A DNA stretch of 64,000 nucleotides from a bacterium (GCA_035703895.1 DASSXJ010000113.1:4159-68158), one strand, 5' to 3'; shown: positions 27,252 to 43,210, counted from the first letter of the stretch. The notes: generated by a model from the sequence alone, not told the origin. A program made the numbers and translations.

Positions 27252-27317
27252 ATCACGATGTCATGCACCGAGCCGAGGCGCATGCGGATGTCACACGGTG
27301 AGGGAGCGTCACGTGCA

Positions 27318-27989
27318 ATGAGCCACCAGCATCCTCGCGTGCTGCTCGATCACGTCCTGGTCGCGGTCCCGGACCTGGCCGAGGGCGCCCGCCGGTTCGA
27401 AGAGCGGTACGGGCTTCGCGCTCTGGAGGGAGGGCGACATCCCGGAATCGGGACGGCAAACATGATCGTCCCCCTCGGATCGTCCTATCTAGAGCTCATC
27501 GCGGTCGTTGACCCTGAAGAGGCCAGCCGGACGCCTACCAGGGGCCGCATCACCCGGGCGCTCTCCGAGGGCCGGACGTTCGCCACGTGGGCGGTCCGCA
27601 CCGACAACCTCGACGCGCTGCGCGCGCACCTCAAGGAGGCGGGAGTGAAGCTGTCGGAGCCGACCCCTGGGGCACGAAAGCGTCCGGATGGCGTGATCCT
27701 TCGCTGGCGCACACAGTTCCTGGCGGCGGAGGAACCAAGCGCGCTGCCATTCGTCATCGAGTGGTCGGTACCGCCCGGGATGCATCCTGCCGAAGCCCCG
27801 GTCGACCACCCGTCGAAAGCCCGAGGCATCCGCGCAGTGCGATTGGGGGATCCCGACCCGGCCGGCACCTCCGTGCGGATTCGATCACTGCTGGGGAACG
27901 ACATTCACTTCGAGGTTGAACGAGCCGGCACCGGCGGGGTCCTGGCCGTGGAGATCGACACGCCCGGCGGTGTCACGGTGATCCGCTAG
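27318..27989 (+). CDS. VOC (glyoxalase/bleomycin-resistance/dioxygenase) family protein
   Basis: LDHVLVAVPDLAEGARRFEERYGL...HPGIGTANMIVPLGSSYLELIAV resembles a glyoxalase-like betaalphabetabetabeta module, followed by a second half-domain. Start taken at the internal ATG (MSHQHPRVLL). The ORF could begin at 27258. Confidence 0.65.
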   Translation: MSHQHPRVLLDHVLVAVPDLAEGARRFEERYGLRALEGGRHPGIGTANMIVPLGSSYLELIAVVDPEEASRTPTRGRITRALSEGRTFATWAVRTDNLDALRAHLKEAGVKLSEPTPGARKRPDGVILRWRTQFLAAEEPSALPFVIEWSVPPGMHPAEAPVDHPSKARGIRAVRLGDPDPAGTSVRIRSLLGNDIHFEVERAGTGGVLAVEIDTPGGVTVIR

Positions 27990-29160: not shown

Positions 29161-29175
29161 GACCCGCCTCCTTCG

Positions 29176-30072
29176 CTAGATCTGCAGCTTCGGGTCGAAG
29201 GCATCCCGCAACCCGTCACCGAGGAGATTGAACGCCATCACCGCCAGGAACACGCACAGGCCGGGAAAGAGCGACACCCACCAGGCGATGCCGAGATACG
29301 CCCGGCCGTCGGCGATGATGTTCCCCCAGCTCGGCCGCGGAGGCTGCACGCCCAGGCCCAGAAAGCTCAATCCGGCCTCGGTCAGGATGGCCAGCCCGAT
29401 ACGGAGCGTCGCCGAGATGACGATCACCGGCACGACGTTCGGCAGGATGTGCCTGATAATGATCCGCGCGTTGGATGCCCCGGTGGCGTGGGCCGCCGCC
29501 ACGAAATCGCGCGCGCGCAAGGTGAGGAACTCCGCCCGCACGAGACGGGCCGTCGGAGGCCACGCCGTGAGCCCGATGATCCAGATCAATCCGGGAATGC
29601 TCGGCCCAAACAGCGCGAGAAACGCCACGGTCAGGAAAAAGACCGGGATCGCGATGACCATGTCCGTCAGCCGCATCAGCAGTCCGTCGAGGTGGCCGCC
29701 GAAGAACCCCGCCAGCGCTCCCATGAAGGTCCCAAGCACGATCGAGACCAGCATCGACAGCACCCCGATCGCCAGCGAGACGCGCGAGGCGATGATGATC
29801 CGGCTCAGGATGTCCCGCCCCAGCTGATCCGCCCCGAGGAGGTAGGGGGCCCCCGGAGGGTGGAGGACATCCGGGATATGGGGCTGATCTGGGGGAAACG
29901 GCGCCAGGCGCGGCGCGGCAACCGCGACGACGACAAAGAAGAGCATCAGCCCGGCGCCGAGGATCGCCCGCGGATTGCGGAGGAACCGCTGCCAGGGCCC
30001 CCGGCGCCGGCCCGCGGCCCGCACCGGAAGGGACGGCGCGAGAGCGTCCAGGCCCGCTGAGCGGCTAGCCAT
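29176..30072 (-). CDS. ABC transporter permease (DppC/OppC-like)
   Basis: LGADQLGRDILSRIIIASRVSL motif and C-terminal GDGLRDAFDPKLQI. Overlaps the upstream permease by 8 nt. Confidence 0.85.
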   Translation of the reverse strand: MASRSAGLDALAPSLPVRAAGRRRGPWQRFLRNPRAILGAGLMLFFVVVAVAAPRLAPFPPDQPHIPDVLHPPGAPYLLGADQLGRDILSRIIIASRVSLAIGVLSMLVSIVLGTFMGALAGFFGGHLDGLLMRLTDMVIAIPVFFLTVAFLALFGPSIPGLIWIIGLTAWPPTARLVRAEFLTLRARDFVAAAHATGASNARIIIRHILPNVVPVIVISATLRIGLAILTEAGLSFLGLGVQPPRPSWGNIIADGRAYLGIAWWVSLFPGLCVFLAVMAFNLLGDGLRDAFDPKLQI

Positions 30073-31018
30073 GCCGGATGCGGGGATCCAGGTAGAAATA
30101 GCCGATGTCGGCCAGCAGGTTGCTCAGCACCACGAGCATCCCGGCGATGGTCGTCGTCGTCAGTACGGTCGGATAGTCGCGGGACAGCGCGGAGTTTACC
30201 GCAAGCTGCCCAACCCCGGGGAGCGCAAAGACGGTCTCGATCACGACCGAGCCGCTCAACAGAAAGGGGACGAGCAGCGCCAGGATCGTCACCACCGGGA
30301 CGAGAGAGTTCCGCGCGACGTGCCGCAGCATGACGGCGCGCTCCCGGAGGCCCTTGCTGCGGGCCACCCGGATGTAGTCCTGGTCCAACGTCTCCAGCAG
30401 CGAGGACCGCGCATAGCGGACCAGCACCGGCAGGATGCCGAGCGCCTGCACGACGGTGGGCATGACGAGGTACGGCCAGATGACGAAGAGATCGTACCCC
30501 GAGGTACCCGCGGGGCGGAGGCCGCTGGCCGGCAACACTCCGAGCCGCTCGGTGAACACGAAGATCAGCCCCAGCCCGAACCAGAACGTCGGGAGCGAAA
30601 TGCCCAGCAAGGAGAACAGTGTCGCGCCGTGGTCCACGAGGCTGTACGGGCGCCGCGCGGATAGAAAGGCGATCGGCGCCGCCAGGAGGACCGTCATCAC
30701 GATCGACGTCGCGGTCAAGATCAGCGTCGCGGGGAGCGCCTCGGTGACCCGCTGGATTGTCGGTCGCCGGTCGCTGAATGCACGGAGCCGGCCGGTGAGC
30801 AGGTCCCGCATCATGGAGATGTACTGGACGGGGAGCGGGCGATCCAGTCCGAGCTGGTGGCGCATCTCGGCGAGGTCGGCCTGCCCCCGCTGCTCAGGCG
30901 GGATGAGAAACGTCACCGGGTCCCCCGGCGCCAGCACCAGCAGCGCAAACACGATCCCCGTGACTCCGAGCACGAGCGGGACCAGGGCGATCACGCGCCG
31001 GGCGAGATACGCACCCAC
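30065..31018 (-). CDS. ABC transporter permease (DppB/OppB-like)
   Basis: Starts MGAYLARRVIALVPLVLGVTGIVFALLVLAPGDP and ends ...YLDPRIRHG. Confidence 0.85.
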   Translation of the reverse strand: MGAYLARRVIALVPLVLGVTGIVFALLVLAPGDPVTFLIPPEQRGQADLAEMRHQLGLDRPLPVQYISMMRDLLTGRLRAFSDRRPTIQRVTEALPATLILTATSIVMTVLLAAPIAFLSARRPYSLVDHGATLFSLLGISLPTFWFGLGLIFVFTERLGVLPASGLRPAGTSGYDLFVIWPYLVMPTVVQALGILPVLVRYARSSLLETLDQDYIRVARSKGLRERAVMLRHVARNSLVPVVTILALLVPFLLSGSVVIETVFALPGVGQLAVNSALSRDYPTVLTTTTIAGMLVVLSNLLADIGYFYLDPRIRHG

Positions 31019-31031
31019 CCCGGAAACTATC

Positions 31032-32630
31032 TCACCGGCTCCGCCACGTGGGGATGGAACTGAAAAACGCGAACAGCGAGTTGACGCCCCCGGGCAGCGT
31101 CAGCGTCTTTTTCACTCCCCAGATGACGTCCGGCCGCACCGTCATCACCCGCGGGACGTCCCGCAGCACCAGCTCCTGGATCTGATCGTAGAGCGCTTTC
31201 TGCCGCGTCCGGTCGCGGGTGGCATTGGCCTCATCGAGAAGCCGGTCCATCTCCGGATTATTGTACCCGCTGATCTGCGCGACGGACCCGGTGCTCTTGA
31301 AGCCCGTCTCCAGTTCGCTCTGCGGCGGGAAGAGGAGGTTGAACCAGGCGATGCCCACGAGCTCGATTGGAGCGCCCGGGACGAAGTAGCGGCCGAAGAA
31401 GTCGCCCCGCTCGATGGCCTGCACGTCGATCTCAATGCCGACCGCCCGGAGGTACTGCTGGATCAGCAGCGCCTGATTCTGAAAATCCTTGCCGGCGAGA
31501 AACGCGTACTTGACTTTGAAGCGCTGCCCCCCCTTCTGGAGGATGCCGTCCGGTCCCGGCGTCCATCCGGCTTCCGCGAGCAGCTGTTTCGCCTTCGCCG
31601 GGTCGTACGTGTAGCCTTTGAGCTGTTTATCGTATTGCCACAGGCTTGGATGAATCGGGCTCTGGACCGTCGTCCCCAGCCCCCGATACAGCGCCCTGAG
31701 CATCTCGTCGCGATTGACCGCATAGGCCATGGCCTGCCGCGCCCGCGGGTCCTGAAAGACCGGCAATTTCACGTTCATGGTAAACCAGTAGTTCGTGTCC
31801 CCCGGCATGCGCAGCACGCGCACACGAGGGTCGGTCCGGAAGCTGTCATAGGCTTCAGGAATGATGCGGCCGGCATCGATGTTCCCGGCGCGCAACTCGG
31901 CGATCACCGTCGCATCCTCGGGAATGAGCTTCAGCACGACGCGCTTCAGGGTCGGAACGCCTCCCCAGTAGTCGGGGGACGCCTCGAAGGTCATGCTTTC
32001 CTTCTCACGCCACTCCACCAAGCGGTAGGGGCCGGCCCCGATCGGCTTTCGCACGAACGGCGCCTCTTGCAGACGGGCGACGTCAAGATTGAGGAGCGCG
32101 TGTTCGGGAATGATCGGCGCCGTCCCGATCTGCTCGTAGAAGTACGGGTACGGCCGGTTGAGGATGAACCGGATCGCGCGTGGTGTCAGCACGGTGATGC
32201 CGCTCACCGATGCGGCCTTGCCGGCCTTGTATTCTTGCGCACCCGCGATCTCCAGGAGGGCGGGTGACGTTGTCGGATACTTGGCGTGCAGGTAGAGCTC
32301 GTAGGTGAATTTGACGTCCCGGGCCGTGACCGGGGTGCCGTCCTGGAATTTGGCCGCCCGGAGCGTCATCACGTAGGTCTTGCCGTCGGGGGAGGCCGGG
32401 TATTTCTCGGCCAGGTGCCCGGAGACATTCCCCTGACCGTCCACGGCCGTCAGCGAGTCGTTGAGCAAGAGACTGACATAGGACGTCACCGCTTCGGTGC
32501 TGCCCAAAATGCGGATCGGGAGCCCCCAAATGGAGACGATGGCCTGCGAGGTGCCTTGGCCGAGCGCGGGAACCCTCGCCCCGCACGCCACCACGAGCGC
32601 TAACAGCAGAACACCGATCCGTTTGCTCAT
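31032..32630 (-). CDS. ABC transporter substrate-binding protein, family 5 (peptide/nickel/opine type)
   Basis: Start at ATG 32630 (MSKRIGVLLLALVVACGARVPALGQG, a signal peptide). The longer ORF to 32969 is Arg/Pro-rich and unlikely. SBP_bac_5-like length and segments. Confidence 0.85.
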   Translation of the reverse strand: MSKRIGVLLLALVVACGARVPALGQGTSQAIVSIWGLPIRILGSTEAVTSYVSLLLNDSLTAVDGQGNVSGHLAEKYPASPDGKTYVMTLRAAKFQDGTPVTARDVKFTYELYLHAKYPTTSPALLEIAGAQEYKAGKAASVSGITVLTPRAIRFILNRPYPYFYEQIGTAPIIPEHALLNLDVARLQEAPFVRKPIGAGPYRLVEWREKESMTFEASPDYWGGVPTLKRVVLKLIPEDATVIAELRAGNIDAGRIIPEAYDSFRTDPRVRVLRMPGDTNYWFTMNVKLPVFQDPRARQAMAYAVNRDEMLRALYRGLGTTVQSPIHPSLWQYDKQLKGYTYDPAKAKQLLAEAGWTPGPDGILQKGGQRFKVKYAFLAGKDFQNQALLIQQYLRAVGIEIDVQAIERGDFFGRYFVPGAPIELVGIAWFNLLFPPQSELETGFKSTGSVAQISGYNNPEMDRLLDEANATRDRTRQKALYDQIQELVLRDVPRVMTVRPDVIWGVKKTLTLPGGVNSLFAFFSSIPTWRSR

Positions 32631-32694: not shown

Positions 32695-33102
32695 TCACGT
32701 TTTGAAGACCCCGCGTCCGATGGCCACGAGCGTGCCGTCTTCGCCCACCACCTCGATGTCGGCAACCGCAAGAGACCGCCCGGATTTGACCGCGCGGGCG
32801 GTCGCGGTGAGGGCGCCTTGTGGCGCCGGGCGCAGGTAGTCCACGCGCAGGTCGACCGTGGGGACATCGTACCCCACAGCGGCAATGATCGCGAAGTCAC
32901 CGGCGGTATCGATGAGGGTGGCGATTGCCCCCCCGTGGACATACCGGCCCGTCTCGTCGTCTCCCGCAAACAGGTCCTCTCGGAACGGCATGCGGACGAC
33001 GACCTCGCTGGGGCTCGCCCGCACCATCTCCAGCCCCAGCAACCGATGGAAGGGCGACCGGCGAAGGACGTCCGCGAGGGTCTCGAGCGGCAGGCGTGAC
33101 AC
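32695..33102 (-). CDS. PaaI-family (hotdog-fold) thioesterase
   Basis: The ...YVHGGAIATLIDTAGDFAI... motif is typical of 4HBT/PaaI thioesterases. 135 aa. Confidence 0.8.
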   Translation of the reverse strand: MSRLPLETLADVLRRSPFHRLLGLEMVRASPSEVVVRMPFREDLFAGDDETGRYVHGGAIATLIDTAGDFAIIAAVGYDVPTVDLRVDYLRPAPQGALTATARAVKSGRSLAVADIEVVGEDGTLVAIGRGVFKT

Positions 33103-34664
33103 TACCCCCCTCCCCTCAGCACGCCGACCATCTCTTTCGCACGCTTCCGCAGCGCCAGACGGTCGACCTTGCCTGTACTCCCGAGCGGCACAGCCTCGAG
33201 GAAGAAGACCCGCCGGGGATGCGCATAGGCCGGGCCGCGCCCCAGAAAAAACTGCGTGAGTTCTTCATCCGTCGCTGCCTGCCCGTCGTGGAGCACCACG
33301 AACGCCACGGGGGCCTCGCCCTTTACGACGTGCGGCACGGAGACCACAATGGCCTCCCGGACCGCCGGGTGCCGGAGGAGCGTATCCTCGATCTCCTTGG
33401 GGTACACGTTTTCTCCCCCGACGTTGATCATGTCGTCCGTCCGGCCGAGGATGTAGTAGTAGCCGTCTTCATCGCACCGCACGAGGTCCCCGGTGTGCAG
33501 CCATCCCTCGCCGTCGAATTTGTTCGCGGTGATCTCCGGCGCCTTATAGTATCCCTTGGCCAGTCCGGGGTTCCGGACCCAGAGCTCGCCCGCCTCCCCG
33601 GTCTGAGCCTCCCGGCCGCCGGGCGTCACCACCCGCACCTCACAGCCCGGGAGCGGCAGCCCCGTGCTCCCTGTTTTTCGGGGACCGAAGCGGGGGCTTT
33701 CGAAGACCACCGGACCGCCTTCGGTCAACCCGTAGCCCTCGCTGATCCCTGCGTGAAACGTCGCCTGAAACTCGTGCAGCAAGTCCGGCGGCACCATCGC
33801 CGATCCGCACGCCGCCCAGCGCACCGAGCTCACGTCGTACTCCAACAGGAGCTGCTTTTGGTTGAGGATCATGCGAAACATCGCCGGCACGCCCGTGAGG
33901 TAGGTGCACCGGTGGCGGGCGATCGCCTTGATCACCTCGCCGGCATCGAACCCGGGCAAGATGACCAGCGCTCCCCCGGCCATCAGGAGCGGCTTCACCG
34001 CGGCCGCCATGGCATTCTTGTGGTACAGGGGCACGGCGACGAGGCCCCGGTCGGTCTCGTCGAGCATCATGACGTGCCGCACCATGTCCGCGTTCCAGAA
34101 CTGCCCTCCGTGCGTCAGCAGCACGCCTTTCGGTCTCCCCGTCGATCCTGAGGTATAGGGCTGCATGCAGAGATCGTCACCCCTGACCGGAACCGTCTCG
34201 AATTCCGGTGGAGCCGCCTCGAGCAGCCGCTCGTACGAAAACATTCCCGAAGGCGTCGCTCCCGTCACCACGATCGTGCGGAGGGCCGGGACGTCTGCCT
34301 TGAGCCGCGCGGCCTGATCCCGTAGCGTCCGCGACGCGAACAGCACCTCGGCGTCCGAGTGCTCGACGCAGTACCGGAGGGTGTCGTAGCCCAGCCGGAT
34401 GTTGAGGGGGACCGGCACCGCGCCGGCACGCATGCTGCCGAAGCAGAGCTCGATGAACGGCCACTCGTTCGGGAAGAGGAGGGCCACGCGCTGCCCCTTG
34501 TGGACGTCCAGGCCCCGGAGCAGGCGGCCGACGCGCTTCATCCGCGCATCGAGCTCGCCGTAGGTCAGCGTGACGTCGCCCTGGATGACGGCCGGCCGCT
34601 CAGGAAAGGCCCGCATCGGGATGTGGGCGAGGTCACCGAAGTTGCCCGAAGGCGCCGGCATCAC
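33102..34664 (-). CDS. AMP-dependent acyl-CoA synthetase/ligase
   Basis: AMP-binding box-like (YTSGSTGRPKGV) and later TGDL...DGYYYILGRTDDMINVGGENVYPKEIE. Classic ANL-superfamily layout. Confidence 0.9.
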   Translation of the reverse strand: MMPAPSGNFGDLAHIPMRAFPERPAVIQGDVTLTYGELDARMKRVGRLLRGLDVHKGQRVALLFPNEWPFIELCFGSMRAGAVPVPLNIRLGYDTLRYCVEHSDAEVLFASRTLRDQAARLKADVPALRTIVVTGATPSGMFSYERLLEAAPPEFETVPVRGDDLCMQPYTSGSTGRPKGVLLTHGGQFWNADMVRHVMMLDETDRGLVAVPLYHKNAMAAAVKPLLMAGGALVILPGFDAGEVIKAIARHRCTYLTGVPAMFRMILNQKQLLLEYDVSSVRWAACGSAMVPPDLLHEFQATFHAGISEGYGLTEGGPVVFESPRFGPRKTGSTGLPLPGCEVRVVTPGGREAQTGEAGELWVRNPGLAKGYYKAPEITANKFDGEGWLHTGDLVRCDEDGYYYILGRTDDMINVGGENVYPKEIEDTLLRHPAVREAIVVSVPHVVKGEAPVAFVVLHDGQAATDEELTQFFLGRGPAYAHPRRVFFLEAVPLGSTGKVDRLALRKRAKEMVGVLRGGG

Positions 34665-34665
34665 C

Positions 34666-35652
34666 CTACTCCTGGGGACGGATGATGACCTTGCCGAAGA
34701 CTTCGCGGTCCTCGAGGAGTCGCTCGCCTTCGGCGGTCTGTGCCAGCGGCAGCACCCGATCGATCACGGGCCGGATCCGCCCGGCGCCCGTCGCGTCCAG
34801 CAACGCCAGCAGATCCGGCCGGCTCCAGCCGTCTGAGCCGAGGATGGTGAGTTCCCGGACCCAAATGTACCGGATGTCGGTCCTGGCGTCGAACCCGGTG
34901 GTCGCTCCGCAGGTGAGGAGGCGCCCTCCTTTGCGGAGGCTCCGCAGGCTCCGCGCCCAGGTCTCGGCGCCGGTGTAGTCGACCACCACATCCACTCCAC
35001 GCTTGGTCGTGAGCCGCCACACCTCGCGGTCGAACTCCCCGTCCCCCGAGTTGATCAGGTGATCGGCGCCGAGCGCCCGCAGCCTCGCAAGCTTGTCCTC
35101 CGTCGAGGCCGCGGCGTACACGATACAGCCGGCCATTTTCGCGATCTGCACGCACGCCGTGCCCACGCCACCAGAGGCTCCCAGGATCAAGACATGCTCC
35201 CCGGGGCCGATCCGGCCCCGCGTGCGCAACATCCGCCAGGCCGTCCCGTAGGCGATCGGCAGGGCCGCCGCCTGATCAAACGCCAGGATGTCAGGAAGGG
35301 GGATAAGGTTTGCCGCCGGCACGAGCGCGTATTCAGCCAGTCCGCCCGGGGCGTCCTCTCCGATGGCGCCGTGCTCGATCGCCGGGTCGACCAGTACCCG
35401 CGTTCCGACGGCGAGCCCCGGCGCCTCCGGGCCGATCTCCGCGATCACGCCCGCGATGTCGCCCCCGCTGACAAACGGCAACGGCGTCCGCTTGCCCGGC
35501 ATACCGCGCCGGACGAAGATGTCAAGGTGGTTGAGGCTGCAGGCGTGGACGCGGACCACCGCCTGGCCTGCCTCGGCGCGCGGGGTGGGCCAGTCCTGCT
35601 CCAACGTAAGCTTGTCGCGTCCGCCGTGCTCGTGGATCACGATCGCCCGCAT
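34666..35652 (-). CDS. zinc-binding/quinone-type medium-chain dehydrogenase/reductase (MDR family)
   Basis: GHE-like N-terminal catalytic domain and a Rossmann motif LILGASGGVGTACVQIAKMAG. Confidence 0.85.
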   Translation of the reverse strand: MRAIVIHEHGGRDKLTLEQDWPTPRAEAGQAVVRVHACSLNHLDIFVRRGMPGKRTPLPFVSGGDIAGVIAEIGPEAPGLAVGTRVLVDPAIEHGAIGEDAPGGLAEYALVPAANLIPLPDILAFDQAAALPIAYGTAWRMLRTRGRIGPGEHVLILGASGGVGTACVQIAKMAGCIVYAAASTEDKLARLRALGADHLINSGDGEFDREVWRLTTKRGVDVVVDYTGAETWARSLRSLRKGGRLLTCGATTGFDARTDIRYIWVRELTILGSDGWSRPDLLALLDATGAGRIRPVIDRVLPLAQTAEGERLLEDREVFGKVIIRPQE

Positions 35653-35703
35653 GACGGCCTCTTTTCTGGATCCCCTCGGGTTCTCCTCGTCGCGCCGCGG
35701 CGG

Positions 35704-36537
35704 CTAGGCCCGCACGCGGATCCTCGGATCGAGCGCGTCGCGGATGCCGTCTCCCGCGAAGTTCAGGGCGATGACGGTGAGAAAGATCGCGAGTCCCGGG
35801 AACGTCGCCACCCACCATTGCGCGAGAAGCTCCCGGCCGGCGCTGACCATCGCCCCCCACTCCGGCGTCGGCGGCGTCGCACCGAGGCCGAGAAAACTCA
35901 AACCGGCGCCGGTGACGATCGCCGCGCCAAGATCGATTGTGGCAAGGACCACCATCCCAGGCAGGATGCTCGGCAAGATCGCGCGGCGGAAGATGCCCCA
36001 CGGGGTGTGCCCGATCGCGGTGGCCGCCTCCACGTACTCAAGAGTCCGGACCGCCAGCACTTCGCCCCGCGCCAGACGCGCGTAGGGGGGCCACCACACC
36101 AGGACCATCGCGAGCCCCGCATTGACCAGGCCGGGCCCGAGCGCGACGACGATCGCCATCGCCAGGATGATTGCCGGAAACGCCATGACGAGCTCCGTCA
36201 CCCGCATCACCGCCTCGTCGACCCATCCGCCGAAGAACCCGGAGAGCGCGCCGGTGAACATGCCGGCCACACCGGCCAGCGCCACGACCGAAAACGCGAG
36301 GGTCAGCGTATAGCGCCCACCGTACAGGACGCGGACTGAGACTTCGCGCCCGAGATCATCGGTGCCGAACGGATGGCCCACCGAGGGCGGCTGAAACGCC
36401 GCCTCGAGGCGTTGCTCGTCCGGTCCGTGGGGCGCCAGGATCGGCGCGGCTATTGCCGCCCCTACTCCGAGGCCGACGATCACGCCGCCGAGGATCAACC
36501 CGACCGGCCGGCGCCGGCGCCGGGGGCGCTCAATCAA
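35704..36537 (-). CDS. ABC transporter permease (DppC/OppC-like)
   Basis: FGTDDLGREVSVRVLYGGRYTL motif and C-terminal GDGIRDALDPRIR. Overlaps the upstream permease by 8 nt. Confidence 0.85.
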   Translation of the reverse strand: MIERPRRRRRPVGLILGGVIVGLGVGAAIAAPILAPHGPDEQRLEAAFQPPSVGHPFGTDDLGREVSVRVLYGGRYTLTLAFSVVALAGVAGMFTGALSGFFGGWVDEAVMRVTELVMAFPAIILAMAIVVALGPGLVNAGLAMVLVWWPPYARLARGEVLAVRTLEYVEAATAIGHTPWGIFRRAILPSILPGMVVLATIDLGAAIVTGAGLSFLGLGATPPTPEWGAMVSAGRELLAQWWVATFPGLAIFLTVIALNFAGDGIRDALDPRIRVRA

Positions 36538-37549
36538 ACCGCACCCGAGGATTCACCAGGACGTAGAGAACATCGACGCAGAGGTTGACCATCACGTAGA
36601 TGACGCCGATAACGAGGGCCACGCCCATCACCGCGGGAAAGTCGAGGCTGGCCGCCGAGGAAAATGCATACCGTCCCATCCCGGGCCACGAAAAGATGGT
36701 TTCGGTCAACACCGTCCCCGACATGAGCTGGGCGTAGAGCGTGCCCCCGATGGTGATCACCGGGATGAGGGCGTTCCGAAGCGCATGACGAAGAACCACA
36801 CTCCACCGCGCCAGGCCCTTGGCCCGCGCCGTCCGAACGTAATCCTGTGTGAGGACCTCCAGCATGCTCGCCCGCGTGATCCGCGTGACAAAGCCAATGC
36901 CGACGGTGGCCAGCACTGTCGCGGGCAACACCATGTGGCTGAGCGCGTCGGCAAAGAGATCGGGTCGCCCGCGCAACAGGGTATCCACGAGATACATGCC
37001 GGTCACCGGTTCGGGAGGGATCAGACCCGCCGTGAGGCGCCCCGGCGCGGGTGCCCATCCAAGGCGGAAGTACACCGTGGAGACGAGGAGAATCGCAAAC
37101 CAGAACGTGGGAATGGCCACCCCCACCGCGGACAGACCGCGCGTGGCCGCGTCGACCGCAGAGTTTCGGGTGGCCGCCGCGAGCACGCCCATCGCGATGC
37201 CCGCGCCGAGCGCGGCGAGCAGCGCCAAGGTCGCAAGCTCCACCGTCGCCGGGAGCGAGAGTGCCAGTTCAGACAGCACGGGACGGTTCGTCGCAATCGA
37301 CATGCCGAGATCGCCATGGAGCAGATGCCTGACATAGATCATGTACTGAACCGCCACCGGCCGGTCGAGGCCCCAGCGGTGGCGGAAGGCGGCGACGAGC
37401 GCGGGACTCTGGGTGGCCCGGTCCCCCAGGCTGGTCAAGACGAGATCCGCCGGAAGCAGGTGGGAGACGAGGAAGGTCACGCACGTGATGCCGACGAGGG
37501 TCGGCAGCGCAAGGATCACCCGGCGGATCAGATAGCGGCCCATCACCAT
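36530..37549 (-). CDS. ABC transporter permease (DppB/OppB-like)
   Basis: MVMGRYLIRRVILALPTLVGITCVTFLVSHLLP... ends ...LVNPRVRFD. Confidence 0.85.
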   Translation of the reverse strand: MVMGRYLIRRVILALPTLVGITCVTFLVSHLLPADLVLTSLGDRATQSPALVAAFRHRWGLDRPVAVQYMIYVRHLLHGDLGMSIATNRPVLSELALSLPATVELATLALLAALGAGIAMGVLAAATRNSAVDAATRGLSAVGVAIPTFWFAILLVSTVYFRLGWAPAPGRLTAGLIPPEPVTGMYLVDTLLRGRPDLFADALSHMVLPATVLATVGIGFVTRITRASMLEVLTQDYVRTARAKGLARWSVVLRHALRNALIPVITIGGTLYAQLMSGTVLTETIFSWPGMGRYAFSSAASLDFPAVMGVALVIGVIYVMVNLCVDVLYVLVNPRVRFD

Positions 37550-37591
37550 ACCGGGAGGGGACCCGGCGAGCGCAGGTCCCCTTCCCCGCTC

Positions 37592-39175
37592 TTACTTACG
37601 CCGGAGGGAGTCCACCTCGAGGAAGTAGAGCGGGTGGAACTTGAACCCGGTGATGCCGGCGCGCGCCCCCACCAGGTTGGTCGGCTGCGCGAGAAACACA
37701 TAAGGGGAGTCGGGGGCGGCCAGCATTGTGTTGTACTGTTCGTACATTTTCTCCCGGCTCGGGACGTCCGCCGTCTTCTGCGCCTGCGAGACAAGCTTGG
37801 CCGCCTCGGGGTTCTGCCAGTGCAGGCGCTTGTTGATGAACCCGGTCACAAAATACGACCAGTTGTCCGGATCCATGTAGTCGGGGAACCAGAACCCGAT
37901 CGCGGTCTGGGGTTTGCCCTGGCGGTAGAAGGTGAGGAAGATCGACTGCTGTACCGGCTGGAGGCGGAGGTCGATCCCCACCTTGCCGAGGTCTCCCCGA
38001 AGCTTCTGCGCCAGCCGGTCGAGCGGAAGCGCGCCATAGTTCGTCCCAGAGGCCCAGGTGAGGGGCACACCGGCCCGGCTGACGCCGGCCTCTTTCAGGA
38101 GCGCGGCCGCTTTGGATGGATCGTGTTTGTAGAGCAGTTGTGTGTTAAGCGACTCGGGGAATCCCAACATCCCGGGCATCATGATGCTCCCGATGCGGCG
38201 CCCGTGACCGCGCATGATGCCCGAGACGATGCCGTCATAGTCGATCGCGTATTTGACCGCCTCACGGACCTTGATGTTGTCCCAGGGTGCCACGCTGGTG
38301 TTGAGCCCCATGTACACCGTGTAGGCGGACGGATCTTCAAACAGCGTGACGCCGGACTTCCCCTTCAGGCCTTCCGCTTGATCCACGCTCAGGTCGAGAG
38401 CCATGTCCACATCGGCCCGCTGGAGGGTGAGCGATTGCGTGCTCGGATCCTTGATATGCTTGACGATGACCTCACGGAAGAACGGCTTGGACCCGTAATA
38501 TTTCTCGTTCCGCTCGAGGACGATCTCGGTCTCGCGGGTGTACCGCTGGAGGACATACGGTCCCGCGCCTGCCGAATGCGAGTAGAACCACTGCTCGGCC
38601 TTGTCGAGGGAGTCCGCCCCAACGGTTTCCACGCCGCCCTGCGCGCGGACCGTCTTGCTGTCGACGATGGAAAACACCCCCGCGGCCAGCGCGGCAAGGA
38701 ACGTCGCGTCGGGCCCGCCCAGGATCACGCGCACGGTCCGCGGATCGACAATCTCGACGGTCTTAAGCGGATCGGCGAGGAACGAGCCGTAGCCTTTGAT
38801 GTTCTTTGCCCGCAGCAGGGAGAAGCGGACGTCCTCGGAGGTCACGGGGTTCCCGCTGGGAAACACCGCATCCTTGCGCAGCGTGAACGTGTAGGTCGTA
38901 GCGTCCGAACTCACGCTCCATGACTCGGCCAGGTCGCCTTCGATCTTCCAGAAATTCGGCGCCCGTTGCCTGACGAGGCGGCTGTAGATGGGAAACTGGA
39001 GAAAGACGCCGCCGACGTCGTACGACTTGCTGGGATCTGGAGTACGGATATCGGAGATGTCCTTCGCAACGACAAGAACGTCGGTGCGAGCGGCGGCGAT
39101 CGTCGACGTCCCGGAAAGGCCCAGGGACAACCCCACGGCGACGACGGCCGATATGACTCGGGCCATCGAGTTCAT
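37592..39175 (-). CDS. ABC transporter substrate-binding protein, family 5
   Basis: 527 aa with signal peptide MNSMARVISAVVAVGLSLGLSG. First gene of the operon that continues into the permeases, the dehydrogenase, the CoA ligase and the thioesterase. Confidence 0.85.
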   Translation of the reverse strand: MNSMARVISAVVAVGLSLGLSGTSTIAAARTDVLVVAKDISDIRTPDPSKSYDVGGVFLQFPIYSRLVRQRAPNFWKIEGDLAESWSVSSDATTYTFTLRKDAVFPSGNPVTSEDVRFSLLRAKNIKGYGSFLADPLKTVEIVDPRTVRVILGGPDATFLAALAAGVFSIVDSKTVRAQGGVETVGADSLDKAEQWFYSHSAGAGPYVLQRYTRETEIVLERNEKYYGSKPFFREVIVKHIKDPSTQSLTLQRADVDMALDLSVDQAEGLKGKSGVTLFEDPSAYTVYMGLNTSVAPWDNIKVREAVKYAIDYDGIVSGIMRGHGRRIGSIMMPGMLGFPESLNTQLLYKHDPSKAAALLKEAGVSRAGVPLTWASGTNYGALPLDRLAQKLRGDLGKVGIDLRLQPVQQSIFLTFYRQGKPQTAIGFWFPDYMDPDNWSYFVTGFINKRLHWQNPEAAKLVSQAQKTADVPSREKMYEQYNTMLAAPDSPYVFLAQPTNLVGARAGITGFKFHPLYFLEVDSLRRK

Positions 39176-39327
39176 ATCGTACCCTCCTCCACTGACATGC
39201 TCGGCTGGTGCCTTCTGGTCCTACGGAGAAACTCCTCTCTTCCGGTCAGTCGGGATGAGATCGACCGCCTGGGAGAGAACGGAACGTTGCCGTGTTCTAC
39301 AAGGACCTGACGCGAAGGGGGAGACAC

Positions 39328-40321: not shown

Positions 40322-41362
40322 CTAGAACAGCGCACGTTCGCAGAACTCGCCCAGCAACCGGACAGTCGCTTCGAGATCCTCCTCGCGCACCGTCTCAATG
40401 GGGCTGTGCGAGTACCGCGTCGGGTAACAGACCAGGGCCGATGGGATACCTTTCCTGAGCAGCGCCGCAGCATCGGAGGCGTACGATTGGAAGGCGACGT
40501 GCTGGACGGGGATGTCCGCCGCCTCGGCCGCCCGGGCCAGCGCCTCGGTGAGCCCCCGATGGTACCTCACCGCGGAATCTTTGTGTACGAGCACAGGACC
40601 TCGTCCCAGCGCACAGGGCACTTCATCGGCGGACACGCCGGGGATGTCGCCGACCAGCCCGATGTCGATGGCAATGGCAAGGTCGTACTCTCGTCCGAGC
40701 CCGTCGGCCCCGATCAAACCGCCTTCTTCCTGGATTGTGGAGGCCACCCACACTTCGTAACCGAGGCGAGGCCGGACTGCCCGGCGGGCGACCTCGATCG
40801 CGATGGCCAGGGCCGCCCGGTCGTCCATCGCCTTTCCCACGATGTTGCCGCCGAGCCGGCGAGTTGACGGCGGGTTCCAGATGACCGAGACGCCGGGGTG
40901 AATGCCGAGCTTCTCCGCTTCTCCCCGCGACCGAAGCCCGAGGTCCACAAAGAGATCGTCCCAGCCGAGGACCTCGGACTCGCGCTTTGCCGCCGACCTG
41001 AGATGACCTGTGCGGGCTCCAACCACGCCCGGCACGGTTCCGGCGGCGGTCATGACGAGGCAGTGCTGACCGGCCAGCGTGGAGGACGGGGGCATCCGAG
41101 AGCTGAGCGGCCCTCCGCCCGCCATGAGACGGAGAAACCCGTCCGCGGTGATGCTCCGAACGATCACGGCGATCTCATCGGCGTGCGCCAGCAGGACGGC
41201 CCGTTTGCCCCGACCGCCCACCTTTGCCAGCACGTTCCCCACGGGCGTCGCAGCGACCTCGCACCCTGCGTCCCGCAACGCCTCGGCCGCGAACTCCTGA
41301 ACCTCCTTCTCGTATCCGCCCGGACCCGCCAAATCGCACAAGGCTTTCACGAGCTCAAACAT
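40322..41362 (-). CDS. M42-family metallopeptidase (glutamyl aminopeptidase/FrvX-like)
   Basis: 346 aa. N-terminus MFELVKALCDLAGPGGYEKEV and the HADEIA metal-ligand region resemble M42 aminopeptidases. Last gene of an ABC-importer operon. Confidence 0.8.
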   Translation of the reverse strand: MFELVKALCDLAGPGGYEKEVQEFAAEALRDAGCEVAATPVGNVLAKVGGRGKRAVLLAHADEIAVIVRSITADGFLRLMAGGGPLSSRMPPSSTLAGQHCLVMTAAGTVPGVVGARTGHLRSAAKRESEVLGWDDLFVDLGLRSRGEAEKLGIHPGVSVIWNPPSTRRLGGNIVGKAMDDRAALAIAIEVARRAVRPRLGYEVWVASTIQEEGGLIGADGLGREYDLAIAIDIGLVGDIPGVSADEVPCALGRGPVLVHKDSAVRYHRGLTEALARAAEAADIPVQHVAFQSYASDAAALLRKGIPSALVCYPTRYSHSPIETVREEDLEATVRLLGEFCERALF

Positions 41363-41408
41363 TCCACTTGTCCCCCTTCTCTCCCGACTCGCCTTCAGGT
41401 GGCGCGGG

Positions 41409-42290
41409 CTACATCCTGAGCCGGGGATCGAGCGCGTCCCGCAGGCCGTCCCCGAACAGGTTGATCGCCATCACCATGATCATGATGGCGAGGCCCGGAA
41501 ACGTGGACAGCCACCACGCCGTGGTCATGAACGACCGGCCGTTGCTGAGCATCTCCCCCCAGTCCGGCGTGGGCGGCCGGACGCCCAGGCCGAGGAAGCT
41601 CAACGCGGCGCCGGCGATGATCGCACCGGGGATCCCGAGCGTGACCAGGACGATGACCGGGGCGGCGACATTCGGCAGCACGTGGCGGGCGAGGATGCGG
41701 GCGTCCCCACAGCCGGCCACTCGGGCGGCTTCAATATATTGGAGCTCACGGACCGCGAGGGTCGAAGCGCGCACCACCCGGATGAAGATGGGCATCCCCG
41801 AGACGCCGACCGCAATCATGGCGCTGCCGAGATTGGGGCCAAGAACGGCAATGATGACGAGGGCCAGCAGGATGCCGGGGAACGCCAGCATGACGTCGAC
41901 CAAGCGCATCACCAGGATGTCGACCGTCCCCCGCGCGTACCCCGACAGGAGCCCTAGGATCGAGCCTCCCACAACCGAGATGGTCACCGCGACCAGGCCC
42001 ATCGCCACCGAGACGCGCGAGCCGTAGATGATCCGGCTGAGGATATCCCGGCCGAACTGGTCGGTCCCCAGCCAGTGCCGCGCACTCGGCGGCTCGAGCG
42101 ATTCCGATACGTTGAGCCGGACCGGGTTGCCGTGAGCGAGCCCCTGGGCGGCGAGCGCGGTCGCGATAATCAGCAGGAAGATGACGCCGCCGGCGGTGGC
42201 CCCCTTGTTGCCGAACAGGCGGTGCAGCGCATCGCTCCACAACCCGCGAACACGCACCCGGCTCGGGCCGGCGTGGTCACCGGCGCTCAT
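41409..42290 (-). CDS. ABC transporter permease (DppC/OppC-like)
   Basis: LGTDQFGRDILSRIIYGSRVSV motif and C-terminal GDGLRDALDPRLRM. 4-nt overlap with the upstream permease. Confidence 0.85.
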   Translation of the reverse strand: MSAGDHAGPSRVRVRGLWSDALHRLFGNKGATAGGVIFLLIIATALAAQGLAHGNPVRLNVSESLEPPSARHWLGTDQFGRDILSRIIYGSRVSVAMGLVAVTISVVGGSILGLLSGYARGTVDILVMRLVDVMLAFPGILLALVIIAVLGPNLGSAMIAVGVSGMPIFIRVVRASTLAVRELQYIEAARVAGCGDARILARHVLPNVAAPVIVLVTLGIPGAIIAGAALSFLGLGVRPPTPDWGEMLSNGRSFMTTAWWLSTFPGLAIMIMVMAINLFGDGLRDALDPRLRM

Positions 42291-43210
42291 TCGAACCGGA
42301 TCCTCGGATCGATAAACGCGTAGGACAGATCGACCAGGAAGTTCATGACGACATAGATTAAGGCGAGGACGAGGATGACCCCCTGCACGGTTGGAAAGTC
42401 CTTGTTCTGAATCGAGTCGACGACGAGCTTACCAAGGCCGGGTCGTGCGAACACGGTCTCCGTGATGACGGCACCGCTCAGCAGACTGCCAAACTGCAAC
42501 CCCATCGCGGTGATCACAGGGATGATGGCGTTGGGCAGCGCGTGCCTCAGGATGACCACGGCGGCGTGGAGGCCTTTGGCGCGAGCGGTCGTCAGGTAGT
42601 CCAGCCGCAGCACCTCGAGAATGCTCGAGCGCACCAGACGCGCCAGCGTCGCCGCCGAGAGGAGCGCCAGCGACACCGATGGCAACACCAGGCCCCTGAG
42701 CCCCGGCTCGCTGGTCGCGGGAACCCAGCGAAAATGGACGGCAAACAGCATGATCAGCAGGAGCGCCAGCCAGAACACCGGAACCGAGATGCCGAAGAGC
42801 GCGACCACCATCGACAACGTGTCGGAGAGACTGTTCCGCCTGAGCCCGGAGATCAGGCCGAGGGCGAACCCGAGGAAGATTGCCAGCACCATCGCCACCA
42901 TCGCGAGTTCCAAGGTGTTCACCCACCGGCTCGAGATCTCCACGGTCACGGGCCGGTCCGTCTGCAGCGACCTGCCCAGGTCGCCGTGCAGCGCTTTCCA
43001 AATGAAATCGGTGTACTGGACATAAGCCGGACGGTCCAGCCCCATGGCGTGCCGGATCTGAGCCAGCCGCTCCGGCGTGGCTGTCCGATCGCCCACGTAG
43101 ATCGACGCCGGATCGCCGGGGATAAGGAAGAGCATCAGGAAGACGACCAGCGACGTCAGGAAGACGGTCGGAAACGCGAGCGCCACTCGCTTTTGGACAT
43201 AGTTCAACAT
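42287..43210 (-). CDS. ABC transporter permease (DppB/OppB-like)
   Basis: MLNYVQKRVALAFPTVFLTSLVVFLMLFLIPGDP... ends ...IDPRIRFE. Confidence 0.85.
   Translation of the reverse strand: MLNYVQKRVALAFPTVFLTSLVVFLMLFLIPGDPASIYVGDRTATPERLAQIRHAMGLDRPAYVQYTDFIWKALHGDLGRSLQTDRPVTVEISSRWVNTLELAMVAMVLAIFLGFALGLISGLRRNSLSDTLSMVVALFGISVPVFWLALLLIMLFAVHFRWVPATSEPGLRGLVLPSVSLALLSAATLARLVRSSILEVLRLDYLTTARAKGLHAAVVILRHALPNAIIPVITAMGLQFGSLLSGAVITETVFARPGLGKLVVDSIQNKDFPTVQGVILVLALIYVVMNFLVDLSYAFIDPRIRFE

What the first reader, a model, noticed from the sequence alone, without database searches (positions are those of the whole stretch)
32695..39175. Oligopeptide-type ABC importer co-transcribed with an acyl-CoA ligase, a PaaI thioesterase and a quinone-type dehydrogenase
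On the minus strand the order is SBP, DppB, DppC, MDR dehydrogenase, AMP-dependent CoA ligase, hotdog thioesterase. Gaps are minimal or the genes overlap.

Coupling a 'peptide' importer to CoA activation and thioester proofreading is not a peptide-catabolic logic. It suggests uptake of an aromatic or aliphatic acid, an opine-like conjugate, or a siderophore/antibiotic precursor that is CoA-activated. The transported substrate is probably undescribed.
Basis: inference. Interest (0 to 1): 0.5.

Follow-up and report, generated by a model that had tools for sequence, protein, structure and literature searches.

The report
Importer-linked acid-activating enzyme operon
A soil bacterium keeps the binding protein and channel of a "peptide-type" nutrient importer in one tight gene string with three enzymes that attach coenzyme A to an acid, reduce it and release it. 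The same three enzymes sit next to unrelated importers in other bacteria, so this looks like a conserved uptake-and-processing unit for a compound nobody has yet identified.

Summary
Gaps run from -8 to +51 nt, and no gap contains a terminator-like site.

Synteny supports functional coupling. In the ligase's own clade (72-93% identity), every contig long enough carries the same order: thioesterase 24/24, MDR 21/21, full importer 11/11. This holds even where the flanks differ.

In a more distant clade (53-58%) the ligase-thioesterase-MDR trio persists, but it is joined to Liv-type or SBP_bac_1-type ABC importers. In Paenibacillus cellulositrophicus it is joined to a three-gene importer that I judge NitT/TauT-like. 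The enzyme trio is therefore the conserved core, and importers were recruited repeatedly.

None of the five Dpp-type modules in this window has one.

The substrate is unknown. No component reaches any curated equivalog threshold. My best reading is import of an unusual polar carboxylic acid, CoA activation, reduction of an activated double bond, then thioester hydrolysis. This is a moderately interesting, uncharacterised variant of a known operon logic.

The parts
39176..39327 (.). Divergent intergenic region between the SBP gene (minus strand) and a luciferase-like monooxygenase gene (plus strand, ATG about 39328). It is the presumed promoter region of the operon.
   Evidence: Sequence shows a GGAGGAGGG ribosome-binding site 6 nt before the SBP ATG at 39175. 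No sigma-70-like match, no Rfam hit and no conservation with L004/L005 upstream regions. The promoter is inferred only.
37592..39175 (-). Family-5 (Dpp/Opp/Nik cluster) substrate-binding protein, 527 aa. It has a Sec-type signal peptide and no lipobox.
   Evidence: Pfam SBP_bac_5 1.7e-79. Best NCBIfam hit is DppA at 138 bits against a cut-off of 1005. Best PDB hit is E. coli DppA at 146-148 bits. The DppA Asp408 equivalent is kept and Arg355 is replaced by Tyr, and both features are conserved in 10 relatives.
37550..37589 (-). GC-rich intercistronic hairpin between the SBP stop codon and the DppB start codon, with no U-run after it.
   Evidence: Fold energy -28.5 kcal/mol, z -2.2. A hairpin at the same position but with a different sequence occurs in L003 (-44.3, z -4.9) and L004 (-61.5, z -4.9); it is weak in L005. 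Its role as an mRNA stabiliser or attenuator favouring SBP over permease is inferred.
36530..37549 (-). DppB-type permease, 339 aa.
   Evidence: BPD_transp_1 4.2e-39 plus BPD_transp_1_N. DppB equivalog 299.5 bits against a cut-off of 590.
35704..36537 (-). DppC-type permease, 277 aa. It overlaps the DppB gene by 8 nt.
   Evidence: BPD_transp_1 5.7e-34 plus OppC_N. NikC 273.5 bits against a cut-off of 358.
34666..35652 (-). Zinc-free medium-chain reductase of the quinone-oxidoreductase / enoyl-reductase type, 328 aa. Proposed enoyl-CoA reductase.
   Evidence: ADH_N, ADH_zinc_N and ADH_zinc_N_2. PIG3-type QOR 196.9 bits against a cut-off of 296.8. Weaker full-length hits to crotonyl-CoA and acryloyl-CoA reductases. 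The structural-zinc loop is deleted, and ACSLNHLD / GGDIAG stand in place of the zinc ligands. PDB neighbours are 2eih, 5k1s and octenoyl/crotonyl-CoA reductases.
33102..34664 (-). AMP-forming acyl-CoA ligase (ANL superfamily), 520 aa.
   Evidence: AMP-binding 2.9e-90 plus AMP-binding_C. PRK06187 446 bits against a cut-off of 476. All core motifs are invariant in alignment A1. The unusual invariant motif VPLYHKNA sits where relatives have hydrophobic residues.
32695..33102 (-). Hotdog-fold thioesterase of the PaaI/Them2 class, 135 aa. Its start codon overlaps the ligase stop codon.
   Evidence: TIGR00369 87.9 bits (cut-off 36.6). PaaI equivalog 54.4 bits against a cut-off of 118.9. H56 G57 G58 D65 are invariant. 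The family profile hits only thioesterases in the PDB.
27258..27989 (+). Glyoxalase_3 / VOC-family protein. It is a probable accessory partner, displaced here by an intervening Dpp module.
   Evidence: Pfam Glyoxalase_3 5.5e-43. In relatives it lies convergently right after the thioesterase in 12 of 20 loci. A homologue (30% identity, E 7e-16) is co-directional within the Paenibacillus cluster.

Best explanation
The six genes form one uptake-and-processing operon.

1. The secreted family-5 binding protein captures an unusual carboxylic acid that is probably polar. The compound is unidentified.
2. The two Dpp-type permeases form the channel. They must borrow their two ATPase subunits from genes elsewhere in the genome.
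3. In the cytoplasm the ligase converts the acid to its CoA thioester.
4. The zinc-free MDR enzyme reduces an activated bond of that thioester with NAD(P)H. An alpha,beta C=C is the most likely target.
5. The hotdog thioesterase, translationally coupled to the ligase, hydrolyses a thioester. It either releases the reduced product ('activate, transform, release', as in 4-chlorobenzoate dehalogenation) or frees CoA from dead-end thioesters.

Shown: gene content, tight spacing, intact catalytic motifs, conserved synteny, and modular exchange of importers around a constant enzyme trio.

Inferred: co-transcription, ATPases supplied in trans, the order of reactions, the thioester as the MDR substrate, and the role of the thioesterase.
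For: Gene content and spacing.

No terminator-like site and no significant structure at the DppC-MDR junction.

Clade A, ligase 72-93% identity: thioesterase 24/24, MDR 21/21, DppC 17/17, DppB+C 14/14, SBP+B+C 11/11. This includes loci with different flanks (L003 against L004/L005).

Distant clade, 53-58% identity: thioesterase 57/58 and MDR 23/24. Dpp genes are replaced by a complete Liv-type importer or a complete SBP_bac_1 / permease / TOBE-ATPase importer in 18 of 21 long loci.

The cultured Paenibacillus cellulositrophicus has thioesterase-ligase-MDR-VOC followed by a permease-SBP-ATPase importer that I judge NitT/TauT-like.

The MDR and thioesterase are orthologous across these architectures, at 47-59% and 40-52% identity.

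The MDR lacks zinc ligands, and its nearest relatives include enoyl-CoA reductases. AibC is a dimethylacrylyl-CoA reductase (PMC5004256).

The thioesterase keeps its catalytic HGG...D signature. The ligase core motifs are intact.
Against: - No transcript data exist, and no promoter was recognised.
- No ATPase genes lie nearby, so function of the importer depends on unseen genes.
- A ligase plus a thioesterase would be a futile cycle unless the thioesterase is product-specific. That is untested.
- MDR enzymes of this type can also act on free acids, enones or quinones. 2-Haloacrylate reductase 1wly is among the PDB neighbours.
- Three loci of the distant clade carry the trio without an adjacent importer.
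- The binding protein retains the DppA-like Asp, so a peptide-like ligand is not excluded.
- No literature on this trio was found.
Confidence: 0.6

Rival explanations
1. The importer takes up a peptide-like or amide-linked conjugate, such as an N-acyl amino acid or an acyl-peptide. A hydrolase encoded nearby splits it, and only then is the released acid CoA-activated and reduced by the trio.
For: The binding protein keeps the Asp equivalent to DppA Asp408, which binds the ligand amino group. The neighbouring modules pair Dpp-type importers with an Xaa-Pro-dipeptidase-like amidohydrolase and an M42 aminopeptidase. Amidohydrolase genes recur near the trio in L003, L004, L005 and Paenibacillus.
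Against: No hydrolase gene lies inside the conserved six-gene unit. The carboxylate-binding Arg355 of DppA is replaced by Tyr. In other lineages the trio is served by Liv-type, SBP_bac_1-type and other non-peptide importers.
Confidence: 0.2
2. The MDR enzyme acts on the free imported compound, reducing a quinone, enone or keto group before ligation. Alternatively it is a general quinone reductase. The product acyl-CoA then enters beta-oxidation, and the thioesterase only spares CoA.
For: The best curated family is PIG3-type quinone oxidoreductase, at 196.9 bits. A free-acid 2-haloacrylate reductase (1wly) and quinone oxidoreductases are among the PDB neighbours. PaaI-class enzymes include CoA-sparing proofreaders such as PaaI and EntH.
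Against: The score is below the PIG3 cut-off of 296.8. The MDR gene is locked next to the ligase in 21/21 and 23/24 loci. No beta-oxidation genes belong to the conserved unit.
Confidence: 0.2
3. A peptide importer and a set of fatty-acid-type enzymes are two independent units. They are neighbours only through shared ancestry.
For: Most clade-A loci come from one lineage and share wider synteny: the luciferase-like gene upstream and the Glyoxalase_3 gene and a further Dpp module downstream. The window has a 51-nt gap between DppC and MDR.
Against: The order holds in L003/L013/L015/L016, which have different flanks. There the DppC-MDR distance is 8-21 nt by tblastn, and the called genes overlap in L003. 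The same trio independently adjoins other importer families elsewhere. No terminator or structure lies in the gap.
Confidence: 0.07
4. The substrate is a beta-amino acid. The ligase makes the beta-aminoacyl-CoA, the hotdog protein acts as an ammonia lyase rather than a thioesterase, and the MDR reduces the resulting enoyl-CoA.
For: CoA-dependent deamination of beta-amino acids exists (PMC4619459). This route would use all three enzymes in a line without a futile cycle. The importer families involved often carry amines, and the DppA-like Asp is kept.
Against: The hotdog family profile matches only thioesterases in the PDB, and it keeps the invariant HGG...D thioesterase signature. It scores well above the TIGR00369 thioesterase cut-off. 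The known beta-valinyl-CoA lyases are crotonase-like, not hotdog (PMC4619459).
Confidence: 0.05

Closest known systems
4-Chlorobenzoate dehalogenation pathway (CoA ligase, dehalogenase, hotdog 4-hydroxybenzoyl-CoA thioesterase). The comparison rests on my own knowledge; the thioesterase appears among the PDB matches.
   Same: The logic is 'activate as a CoA thioester, transform, hydrolyse the thioester'. An ANL ligase and a hotdog thioesterase lie in one operon.
   Different: The middle enzyme here is a zinc-free MDR reductase, not a crotonase-type dehalogenase. The thioesterase belongs to the PaaI/Them2 branch. An ABC importer is built into the operon. The substrate is unknown.
Phenylacetate pathway PaaK / PaaI
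   Same: An ANL ligase is paired with a PaaI-class hotdog thioesterase that can free CoA from unproductive thioesters.
   Different: The PaaI equivalog score is 54 against a cut-off of 119. No ring-oxygenase genes are present. The ligase is not of PaaK type; its nearest solved relatives are fatty-acyl / feruloyl-CoA synthetases.
Acrylate detoxification by a CoA ligase plus the MDR acrylyl-CoA reductase AcuI/YhdH (PMC3338564), and AibC dimethylacrylyl-CoA reductase (PMC5004256)
   Same: An MDR-family NADPH reductase acts on an alpha,beta-unsaturated CoA thioester made by a ligase.
   Different: AcuI equivalog 84 bits against a cut-off of 440, and YhdH family 107 against 297, so this is not an orthologue. 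Those systems have no dedicated importer or thioesterase. That PDB entry 5k1s is AibC comes from my memory only.
E. coli DppABCDF dipeptide importer
   Same: It has a family-5 binding protein plus DppB- and DppC-like permeases. The binding protein retains the Asp408 equivalent.
   Different: No DppD/DppF genes are present. All equivalog cut-offs are missed. Arg355 is replaced by Tyr. The genes are co-operonic with CoA-thioester enzymes rather than peptidases.
Liv-type ABC importers clustered with aromatic-acid CoA ligases (for example the hydroxycinnamate and benzoate systems of Rhodopseudomonas palustris; my own knowledge)
   Same: A binding-protein-dependent importer is encoded beside the CoA ligase that traps the imported acid. 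The distant clade of this very trio uses Liv-type importers.
   Different: Here the importer is of the Dpp/Opp family and lacks ATPases. The downstream chemistry is an MDR plus a thioesterase, not hydratase/lyase or ring reduction.
Shared ('multitask') ATPases such as MsmX and MsiK (PMC7658222)
   Same: Permease/binding-protein modules lack their own ATPase gene and are presumably energised by an ATPase encoded elsewhere.
   Different: The documented cases are carbohydrate (CUT1) importers with one homodimeric ATPase. Here five Dpp-type modules, which normally use a DppD/DppF pair, lack ATPases. The shared ATPases were not identified.

Membership tests
Dpp/Opp (PepT) family ABC importer | Family-5 extracellular substrate-binding protein | tested here: met
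   SBP_bac_5 1.7e-79.
Dpp/Opp (PepT) family ABC importer | Two BPD_transp_1 permeases of DppB and DppC/OppC type | tested here: met
   BPD_transp_1_N and OppC_N N-terminal domains are present.
Dpp/Opp (PepT) family ABC importer | Two ATPase subunits (DppD/DppF) encoded with the permeases | tested here: not met
   No Walker A / LSGGQ ORF adjoins the module. The only ABC ATPase in the 64 kb is the exporter gene at 22068-24092. The same absence holds in clade-A relatives.
Dpp/Opp (PepT) family ABC importer | Orthology to a characterised system (DppA/B/C, NikA/B/C, GsiB/C/D, OppA/B/C) by NCBIfam cut-off | tested here: not met
   DppA 138 against 1005, DppB 299.5 against 590, NikC 273.5 against 358.
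Dpp/Opp (PepT) family ABC importer | Peptide-binding residues of DppA (Asp408 for the amino group, Arg355 for the carboxylate) | tested here: inconclusive
   The Asp equivalent is conserved and the Arg equivalent is Tyr in all 11 SBPs compared. The underlying alignment is of distantly related proteins (146-148 bits).
ANL superfamily acyl-CoA synthetase | AMP-binding and AMP-binding_C domains with intact core motifs (P-loop TSGSTGKPKG, YGLTE, TGD, GRxDD, catalytic Lys) | tested here: met
   (invariant T171-G180, Y311-E315, T391/D393, R408/D410/D411, K499).
Long-chain fatty-acid-CoA ligase (NCBIfam PRK06187) or any other named ligase equivalog | Score at or above the curated cut-off | tested here: not met
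   446.1 against 476. All other models fall far below their cut-offs.
PaaI (hydroxyphenylacetyl-CoA thioesterase, TIGR02286) | Equivalog cut-off | tested here: not met
   54.4 against 118.9.
PaaI/Them2-class hotdog thioesterase (TIGR00369) | Domain cut-off and the catalytic HGG...D signature | tested here: met
   87.9 against 36.6. H56 G57 G58 D65 are invariant. Only thioesterases appear in the PDB profile search.
PaaI/Them2-class hotdog thioesterase (TIGR00369) | Acyl-CoA hydrolase activity | not testable with these tools
   This needs an enzyme assay.
Zinc-free MDR (quinone oxidoreductase / enoyl reductase branch) | MDR fold without catalytic or structural zinc ligands | tested here: met
   ADH_N / ADH_zinc_N. 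The structural-zinc loop is deleted, and ACSLNHLD / GGDIAG replace the Cys/His/Glu ligand motifs in the alignment to 2eih.
PIG3-type NAD(P)H quinone oxidoreductase (TIGR02824) | Subfamily cut-off | tested here: not met
   196.9 against 296.8.
MDR enoyl-CoA reductases (Ccr, AcuI/YhdH, archaeal acryloyl-CoA reductase) | Equivalog cut-offs | tested here: not met
   145.6 against 378.6, 84 against 440, 107 against 297, 130 against 500.
MDR enoyl-CoA reductases (Ccr, AcuI/YhdH, archaeal acryloyl-CoA reductase) | NAD(P)H-dependent reduction of an enoyl-CoA | not testable with these tools
   Inferred only, from the family branch and the fixed adjacency to a CoA ligase and a thioesterase.

The most novel reading that the evidence does not exclude
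The ligase-MDR-thioesterase trio, often with a VOC/Glyoxalase_3 protein, is an undescribed portable 'activate, reduce, release' cassette. It would be a CoA-dependent ene-reductase route that converts an imported unsaturated polar acid, possibly a dicarboxylic one, into its saturated form at the cost of ATP and NAD(P)H. Soil bacteria would have plugged it into at least four unrelated ABC importer families. In this lineage the Dpp-type modules would be energised by ATPases shared among many modules.
Probability: 0.25. Interest if true: 0.55.

Novelty: new variant of a known kind. Interest (0 to 1): 0.4.

Why it matters
Family-5 'peptide' binding proteins and Dpp-type permeases are routinely annotated as peptide or nickel transporters. 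This operon and its relatives give a clear, testable case in which such an importer feeds CoA-thioester chemistry instead.

The constant enzyme trio appears with interchangeable importers across several soil lineages: relatives carrying Rokubacteria, Methylomirabilota and Blastocatellia source labels, Paenibacillus, and this uncultured group. That points to a widespread but unassigned soil substrate and pathway.

The cluster in the culturable Paenibacillus cellulositrophicus offers a way to study it by genetics.

Five Dpp modules without ATPases in 64 kb also raise the question of ATPase sharing in the Dpp/Opp family. So far this is documented mainly for sugar importers.

Tried and rejected
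- **Exact-sequence look-up of the ligase:** not on record.
- **Rfam scan of the whole window:** no riboswitch, tRNA or other RNA.
- **Promoter and terminator scan:** nothing above the shuffle expectation and nothing in the relevant gaps. The sigma-70 consensus scan is probably uninformative in this 65% GC genome.
- **Alignment of the upstream intergenic region with L004/L005:** no conserved operator or promoter.
- **Hotdog protein as a beta-aminoacyl-CoA ammonia lyase:** no support from the family profile or the conserved residues. The only characterised ligase-plus-lyase example I could read uses crotonase-like lyases.
- **Literature searches for the enzyme trio and for ATC-hydrolase plus CoA ligase:** nothing relevant. 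A search for PDB code 5K1S also returned nothing.
- **NCBIfam on accessory genes of the distant clade:** no specific names for the SBP_bac_1 protein, ATC_hydrolase-like protein or cupin. The Liv-type SBP resembles urea/amide binders only weakly.
- **Substrate from nearest solved ligases:** the neighbours (feruloyl/fatty-acyl-CoA synthetase, FadD5, MatB, FadD13, 4CL) are too evenly distant to choose among.
- **The single genome-collection scan:** it returned only one close relative, whose contig is cut inside the transporter.

Full report
**1. Observation**

The window is about 65% GC. The minus strand carries a long string of high-GC3 ORFs. The six ORFs named in the finding sit at the stated coordinates and have the stated domains:
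- SBP_bac_5: 37592-39175
- DppB-like permease: 36530-37549
- DppC-like permease with OppC_N: 35704-36537
- MDR dehydrogenase: 34666-35652
- AMP-binding ligase: 33102-34664
- 4HBT hotdog protein: 32695-33102

Junctions, read from the sequence:

| Junction | Spacing | Source |
|---|---|---|
| SBP to DppB | 42-nt gap | |
| DppB / DppC | 8-nt overlap | |
| DppC to MDR | 51-nt gap, AGAGG before the ATG | |
| MDR to ligase | 1 nt | |
| Ligase / thioesterase | TAG and GTG share one base | |

The terminator scan found nothing in any of these gaps, and overall it did not exceed the shuffles (12 sites against 8.9 +/- 3.3). Rfam found no RNA element in the window.

**2.

*(a) The importer has no ATPase genes.* A six-frame search for Walker A and ABC-signature motifs finds only the tandem-NBD exporter at 22068-24092.

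*(b) The window holds at least five Dpp-type modules, all without ATPases*:
- 9-2005 (+)
- 29176-32630 (-), followed by an Xaa-Pro-dipeptidase-like amidohydrolase
- the module of the finding
- 41409-44989 (-), followed by an M42 aminopeptidase
- 45128-48722 (+)

*(c) The unit's boundaries.* Upstream, the SBP gene faces a divergent luciferase-like monooxygenase gene. Downstream, only 64 nt after the thioesterase stop codon, the next SBP gene starts on the same strand at ATG 32630, with a lipobox. The 3' end of the unit therefore cannot be read from this sequence alone.

**3. Family assignments are generic**

Every component misses every curated equivalog or subfamily cut-off:

| Component | Best model | Score | Cut-off |
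|---|---|---|---|
| SBP | DppA | 138 | 1005 |
| Permease | DppB | 299.5 | 590 |
| Permease | NikC | 273.5 | 358 |
| Ligase | PRK06187 | 446 | 476 |
| MDR | PIG3-type QOR | 196.9 | 296.8 |
| Thioesterase | PaaI | 54.4 | 118.9 |

The thioesterase does pass the PaaI/Them2-class domain model TIGR00369 (87.9 against 36.6).

The MDR is zinc-free. Relative to Thermus 2eih, the structural-zinc loop is deleted, and the ligand positions read ACSLNHLD and GGDIAG, as in quinone oxidoreductases and enoyl reductases. Its PDB neighbours include 5k1s, octenoyl- and crotonyl-CoA reductases, PKS enoyl-reductase domains and a 2-haloacrylate reductase.

From memory, 5k1s is AibC. AibC is a dimethylacrylyl-CoA reductase (PMC5004256).

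The ligase's nearest solved relatives are a fatty-acyl / feruloyl-CoA synthetase (283 bits), FadD5, MatB, FadD13 and 4CL. None is close.

**4. Synteny**

*Close relatives fetched individually.* One GTDB representative, a MAG labelled Bacillota from Centralia thermal soil, carries DppB-DppC-MDR-ligase-thioesterase at 63-82% identity. A protein search showed a ligase clade at 72-92% identity and then a step down to 59% or less. Contigs of three clade members all show SBP-DppB-DppC-MDR-ligase-thioesterase:
- L003 has different flanks: an SDR upstream and a DAO gene downstream.
- L004 and L005 share the window's luciferase-like neighbour.
- L005 has a cupin gene inserted before the MDR.

*Wider sample.* A metagenome scan with a ligase alignment gave 80 more loci, which I mapped by tblastn. 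In the close clade, wherever the contig is long enough:

| Feature | Present |
|---|---|
| Thioesterase directly after the ligase | 24/24 |
| MDR directly before the ligase | 21/21 |
| DppC | 17/17 |
| DppB + DppC | 14/14 |
| Full SBP + B + C | 11/11 |

Two pairs of loci (L001/L019 and L004/L026) look like the same sequence recovered from two collections, so the independent counts are slightly lower.

*Junction and boundary in relatives.*
- In several relatives the DppC-MDR distance is 8-21 nt by tblastn, and the called genes overlap by 4 nt in L003. That leaves no room for a transcript boundary.
- In 12 of 20 loci a Glyoxalase_3 gene lies convergently right after the thioesterase. This marks the 3' end of the unit there.
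- In the window that gene is at 27258-27989, displaced by the intervening Dpp module.

**5. The enzyme trio is the conserved core**

In the 53-58% clade the thioesterase follows the ligase in 57/58 loci. An orthologous MDR lies within 6 kb in 23/24 loci. There is never a Dpp module. Source names among these relatives include Rokubacteria, Methylomirabilota and Blastocatellia. Cross-architecture identities are 47-59% for the MDR and about 50% for the thioesterase.

The trio is instead followed by one of two other importers:
- A complete Liv-type importer, in the order MDR-ligase-thioesterase-LivK-G-F-H-M-SDR-ATC_hydrolase-cupin.
- An SBP_bac_1 binding protein, a permease and a MalK/PotA-like ATPase with a TOBE domain, in the order ligase-thioesterase-ATC_hydrolase-MDR-second ligase-SBP-permease-ATPase. 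The spacing leaves room for a second permease gene, which I did not scan.

Of 21 loci with at least 5.5 kb downstream, 18 carry one of these importers and 3 carry neither.

In the cultured Paenibacillus cellulositrophicus KACC 16577 the order is as follows:
- PaaI-family thioesterase, ligase (45% identity) and MDR (58%).
- A VOC protein homologous to the window's Glyoxalase_3 (E 7e-16).
- A permease-SBP-ATPase set. From its gene order and sizes I judge it NitT/TauT-like; this was not tested with a domain search.
- An SDR, a winged-helix regulator and an amidohydrolase.

A constant enzyme set beside four different importer types is strong comparative evidence that the enzymes act on an imported compound. 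It also shows that the 'peptide' label of the importer here is not informative.

**6. Mechanistic reading**

*Shown:*
- The ligase core motifs are intact.
- The thioesterase HGG...D signature is invariant, and its family profile matches only thioesterases.
- The MDR is a zinc-free reductase.
- Ligase and thioesterase are translationally coupled.

*Inferred:*
- The imported acid is trapped as its CoA thioester.
- The MDR reduces an activated C=C of that thioester.
- The thioesterase then releases the product or rescues CoA. A ligase plus a thioesterase makes sense only if a transformation lies between them, or if the thioesterase proofreads.

*Hints about the substrate, all weak:*
- The ligase has an invariant VPLYHKNA motif where relatives have PLFHAAA, PLFHIAG or PIYHTHG. 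By homology, this region lines the acyl pocket, which suggests a polar or anionic substituent.
- The binding protein keeps the DppA Asp408 equivalent but has Tyr at the Arg355 position. Both features are conserved across 11 SBPs.

The substrate remains unknown.

**7. Expression architecture**

A stable GC hairpin lies between the SBP stop codon and the DppB start codon at 37550-37589 (-28.5 kcal/mol, z -2.2). A hairpin at the same position but with a different sequence is found in L003 (z -4.9) and L004 (z -4.9). No U-run follows it.

The DppC-MDR gap (z +0.6) and the thioesterase-to-next-SBP gap (z -1.1) are unstructured.

I read the hairpin as the familiar device that raises binding-protein expression over permease expression. 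That role is inferred.

**8. Rivals**

- *Independent neighbouring units:* disfavoured by points 4 and 5.
- *A peptide or amide conjugate split by a nearby hydrolase:* remains possible.
- *The MDR acting on the free compound:* cannot be excluded by sequence.
- *A beta-amino-acid route with the hotdog protein as an ammonia lyase:* considered and found unsupported.

**9. Novelty and score**

Operons that pair a binding-protein-dependent importer with a CoA ligase are a known kind. So are 'activate, transform, release' pathways. Three things are new here:
- The uncharacterised but widely conserved ligase-MDR-thioesterase (plus VOC) cassette.
- Its modular pairing with several importer families, including a Dpp-type one.
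- The lack of ATPase genes across all Dpp modules of this lineage.

Shared ATPases are documented for sugar importers (PMC7658222). I did not find them described for Dpp-type systems in the searches I ran.

I rate this a new variant of a known kind, with interest about 0.4. It is a solid, testable lead to an unassigned soil substrate, but nothing in it would astonish a specialist.

Noticed in passing
window 9-2005 (+), 29176-32630 (-), 35704-39175 (-), 41409-44989 (-), 45128-48722 (+): Five Dpp/Opp-type modules (binding protein plus two permeases; the first is cut by the window edge) lie in 64 kb. None has an ATPase gene, and no Dpp/Opp-type ATPase occurs anywhere in the window. Relatives show the same pattern, with only 3 ABC ATPase genes across the clade-A loci, all on the opposite strand and kilobases away. 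This suggests ATPases shared in trans among many Dpp modules.
   Followed up: partly
window 27973-32630 (-) and 40322-44989 (-): The two neighbouring Dpp modules are each followed by a hydrolase: an Xaa-Pro-dipeptidase-like amidohydrolase (27973-29160) and an M42 aminopeptidase (40322-41362). The region is an array of 'importer plus dedicated enzyme' cassettes.
   Followed up: partly
window 37592-39175 and 31032-32630: The binding protein of the finding, and its orthologues in 10 relatives, have a Sec-type signal peptide without a lipobox cysteine. The next binding protein downstream has a lipobox (LVVAC). This is odd if the organism is a monoderm Bacillota, as one relative's record title says.
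   Followed up: no
window 27258-27989 (+) and 27973-29160 (-): The Glyoxalase_3 gene and the amidohydrolase gene converge and overlap by 17 nt. In relatives the Glyoxalase_3 gene sits directly after the thioesterase instead, so a local rearrangement has placed a whole Dpp module between them here.
   Followed up: partly
L006:6947-8011 compared with window 34666-35652: The orthologous MDR in the Liv-type architecture keeps a Cys-rich structural-zinc loop (CGRCEYCREGETTRC). That loop is deleted in the window's enzyme and in the SBP_bac_1-type architecture.
   Followed up: no
L006, L008 and 39 other loci of the 53-58% clade: A small ATC_hydrolase-like protein (PF14196) with conserved cysteines accompanies the trio, often with a second, 42%-identical CoA ligase, a cupin and an SDR. 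None has a specific NCBIfam name. Their role is unexplained.
   Followed up: partly
L091 (Rhodococcus qingshengii plasmid pN9T4-1, NZ_AP026692.1 310702-328222): A 43%-identical ligase sits with a ketoacyl synthase, a Liv-type importer, two crotonases, a CaiB-type CoA transferase and a carboxyl transferase. The cluster lies next to Tn7-like transposition genes (TniQ, TniB, Mu-type transposase). It is another importer-coupled ligase cluster, apparently mobile.
   Followed up: no
window 14472-17806 (-): An N,N-dimethylformamidase beta-subunit-like gene (14472-16313) is followed by two high-GC3 ORFs (16337-16849 and 16853-17806) with no Pfam match.
   Followed up: no
window 60990-63957 (-): A second AMP-binding ligase, running off the window end, is followed by a thiolase, a metallo-beta-lactamase/rhodanese fusion and an FAD-linked oxidase. 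This is a separate CoA-thioester gene set, unrelated by position to the finding.
   Followed up: no
window 1-64000: No tRNA, rRNA, riboswitch or other Rfam family reaches its gathering score anywhere in the 64 kb.
   Followed up: yes
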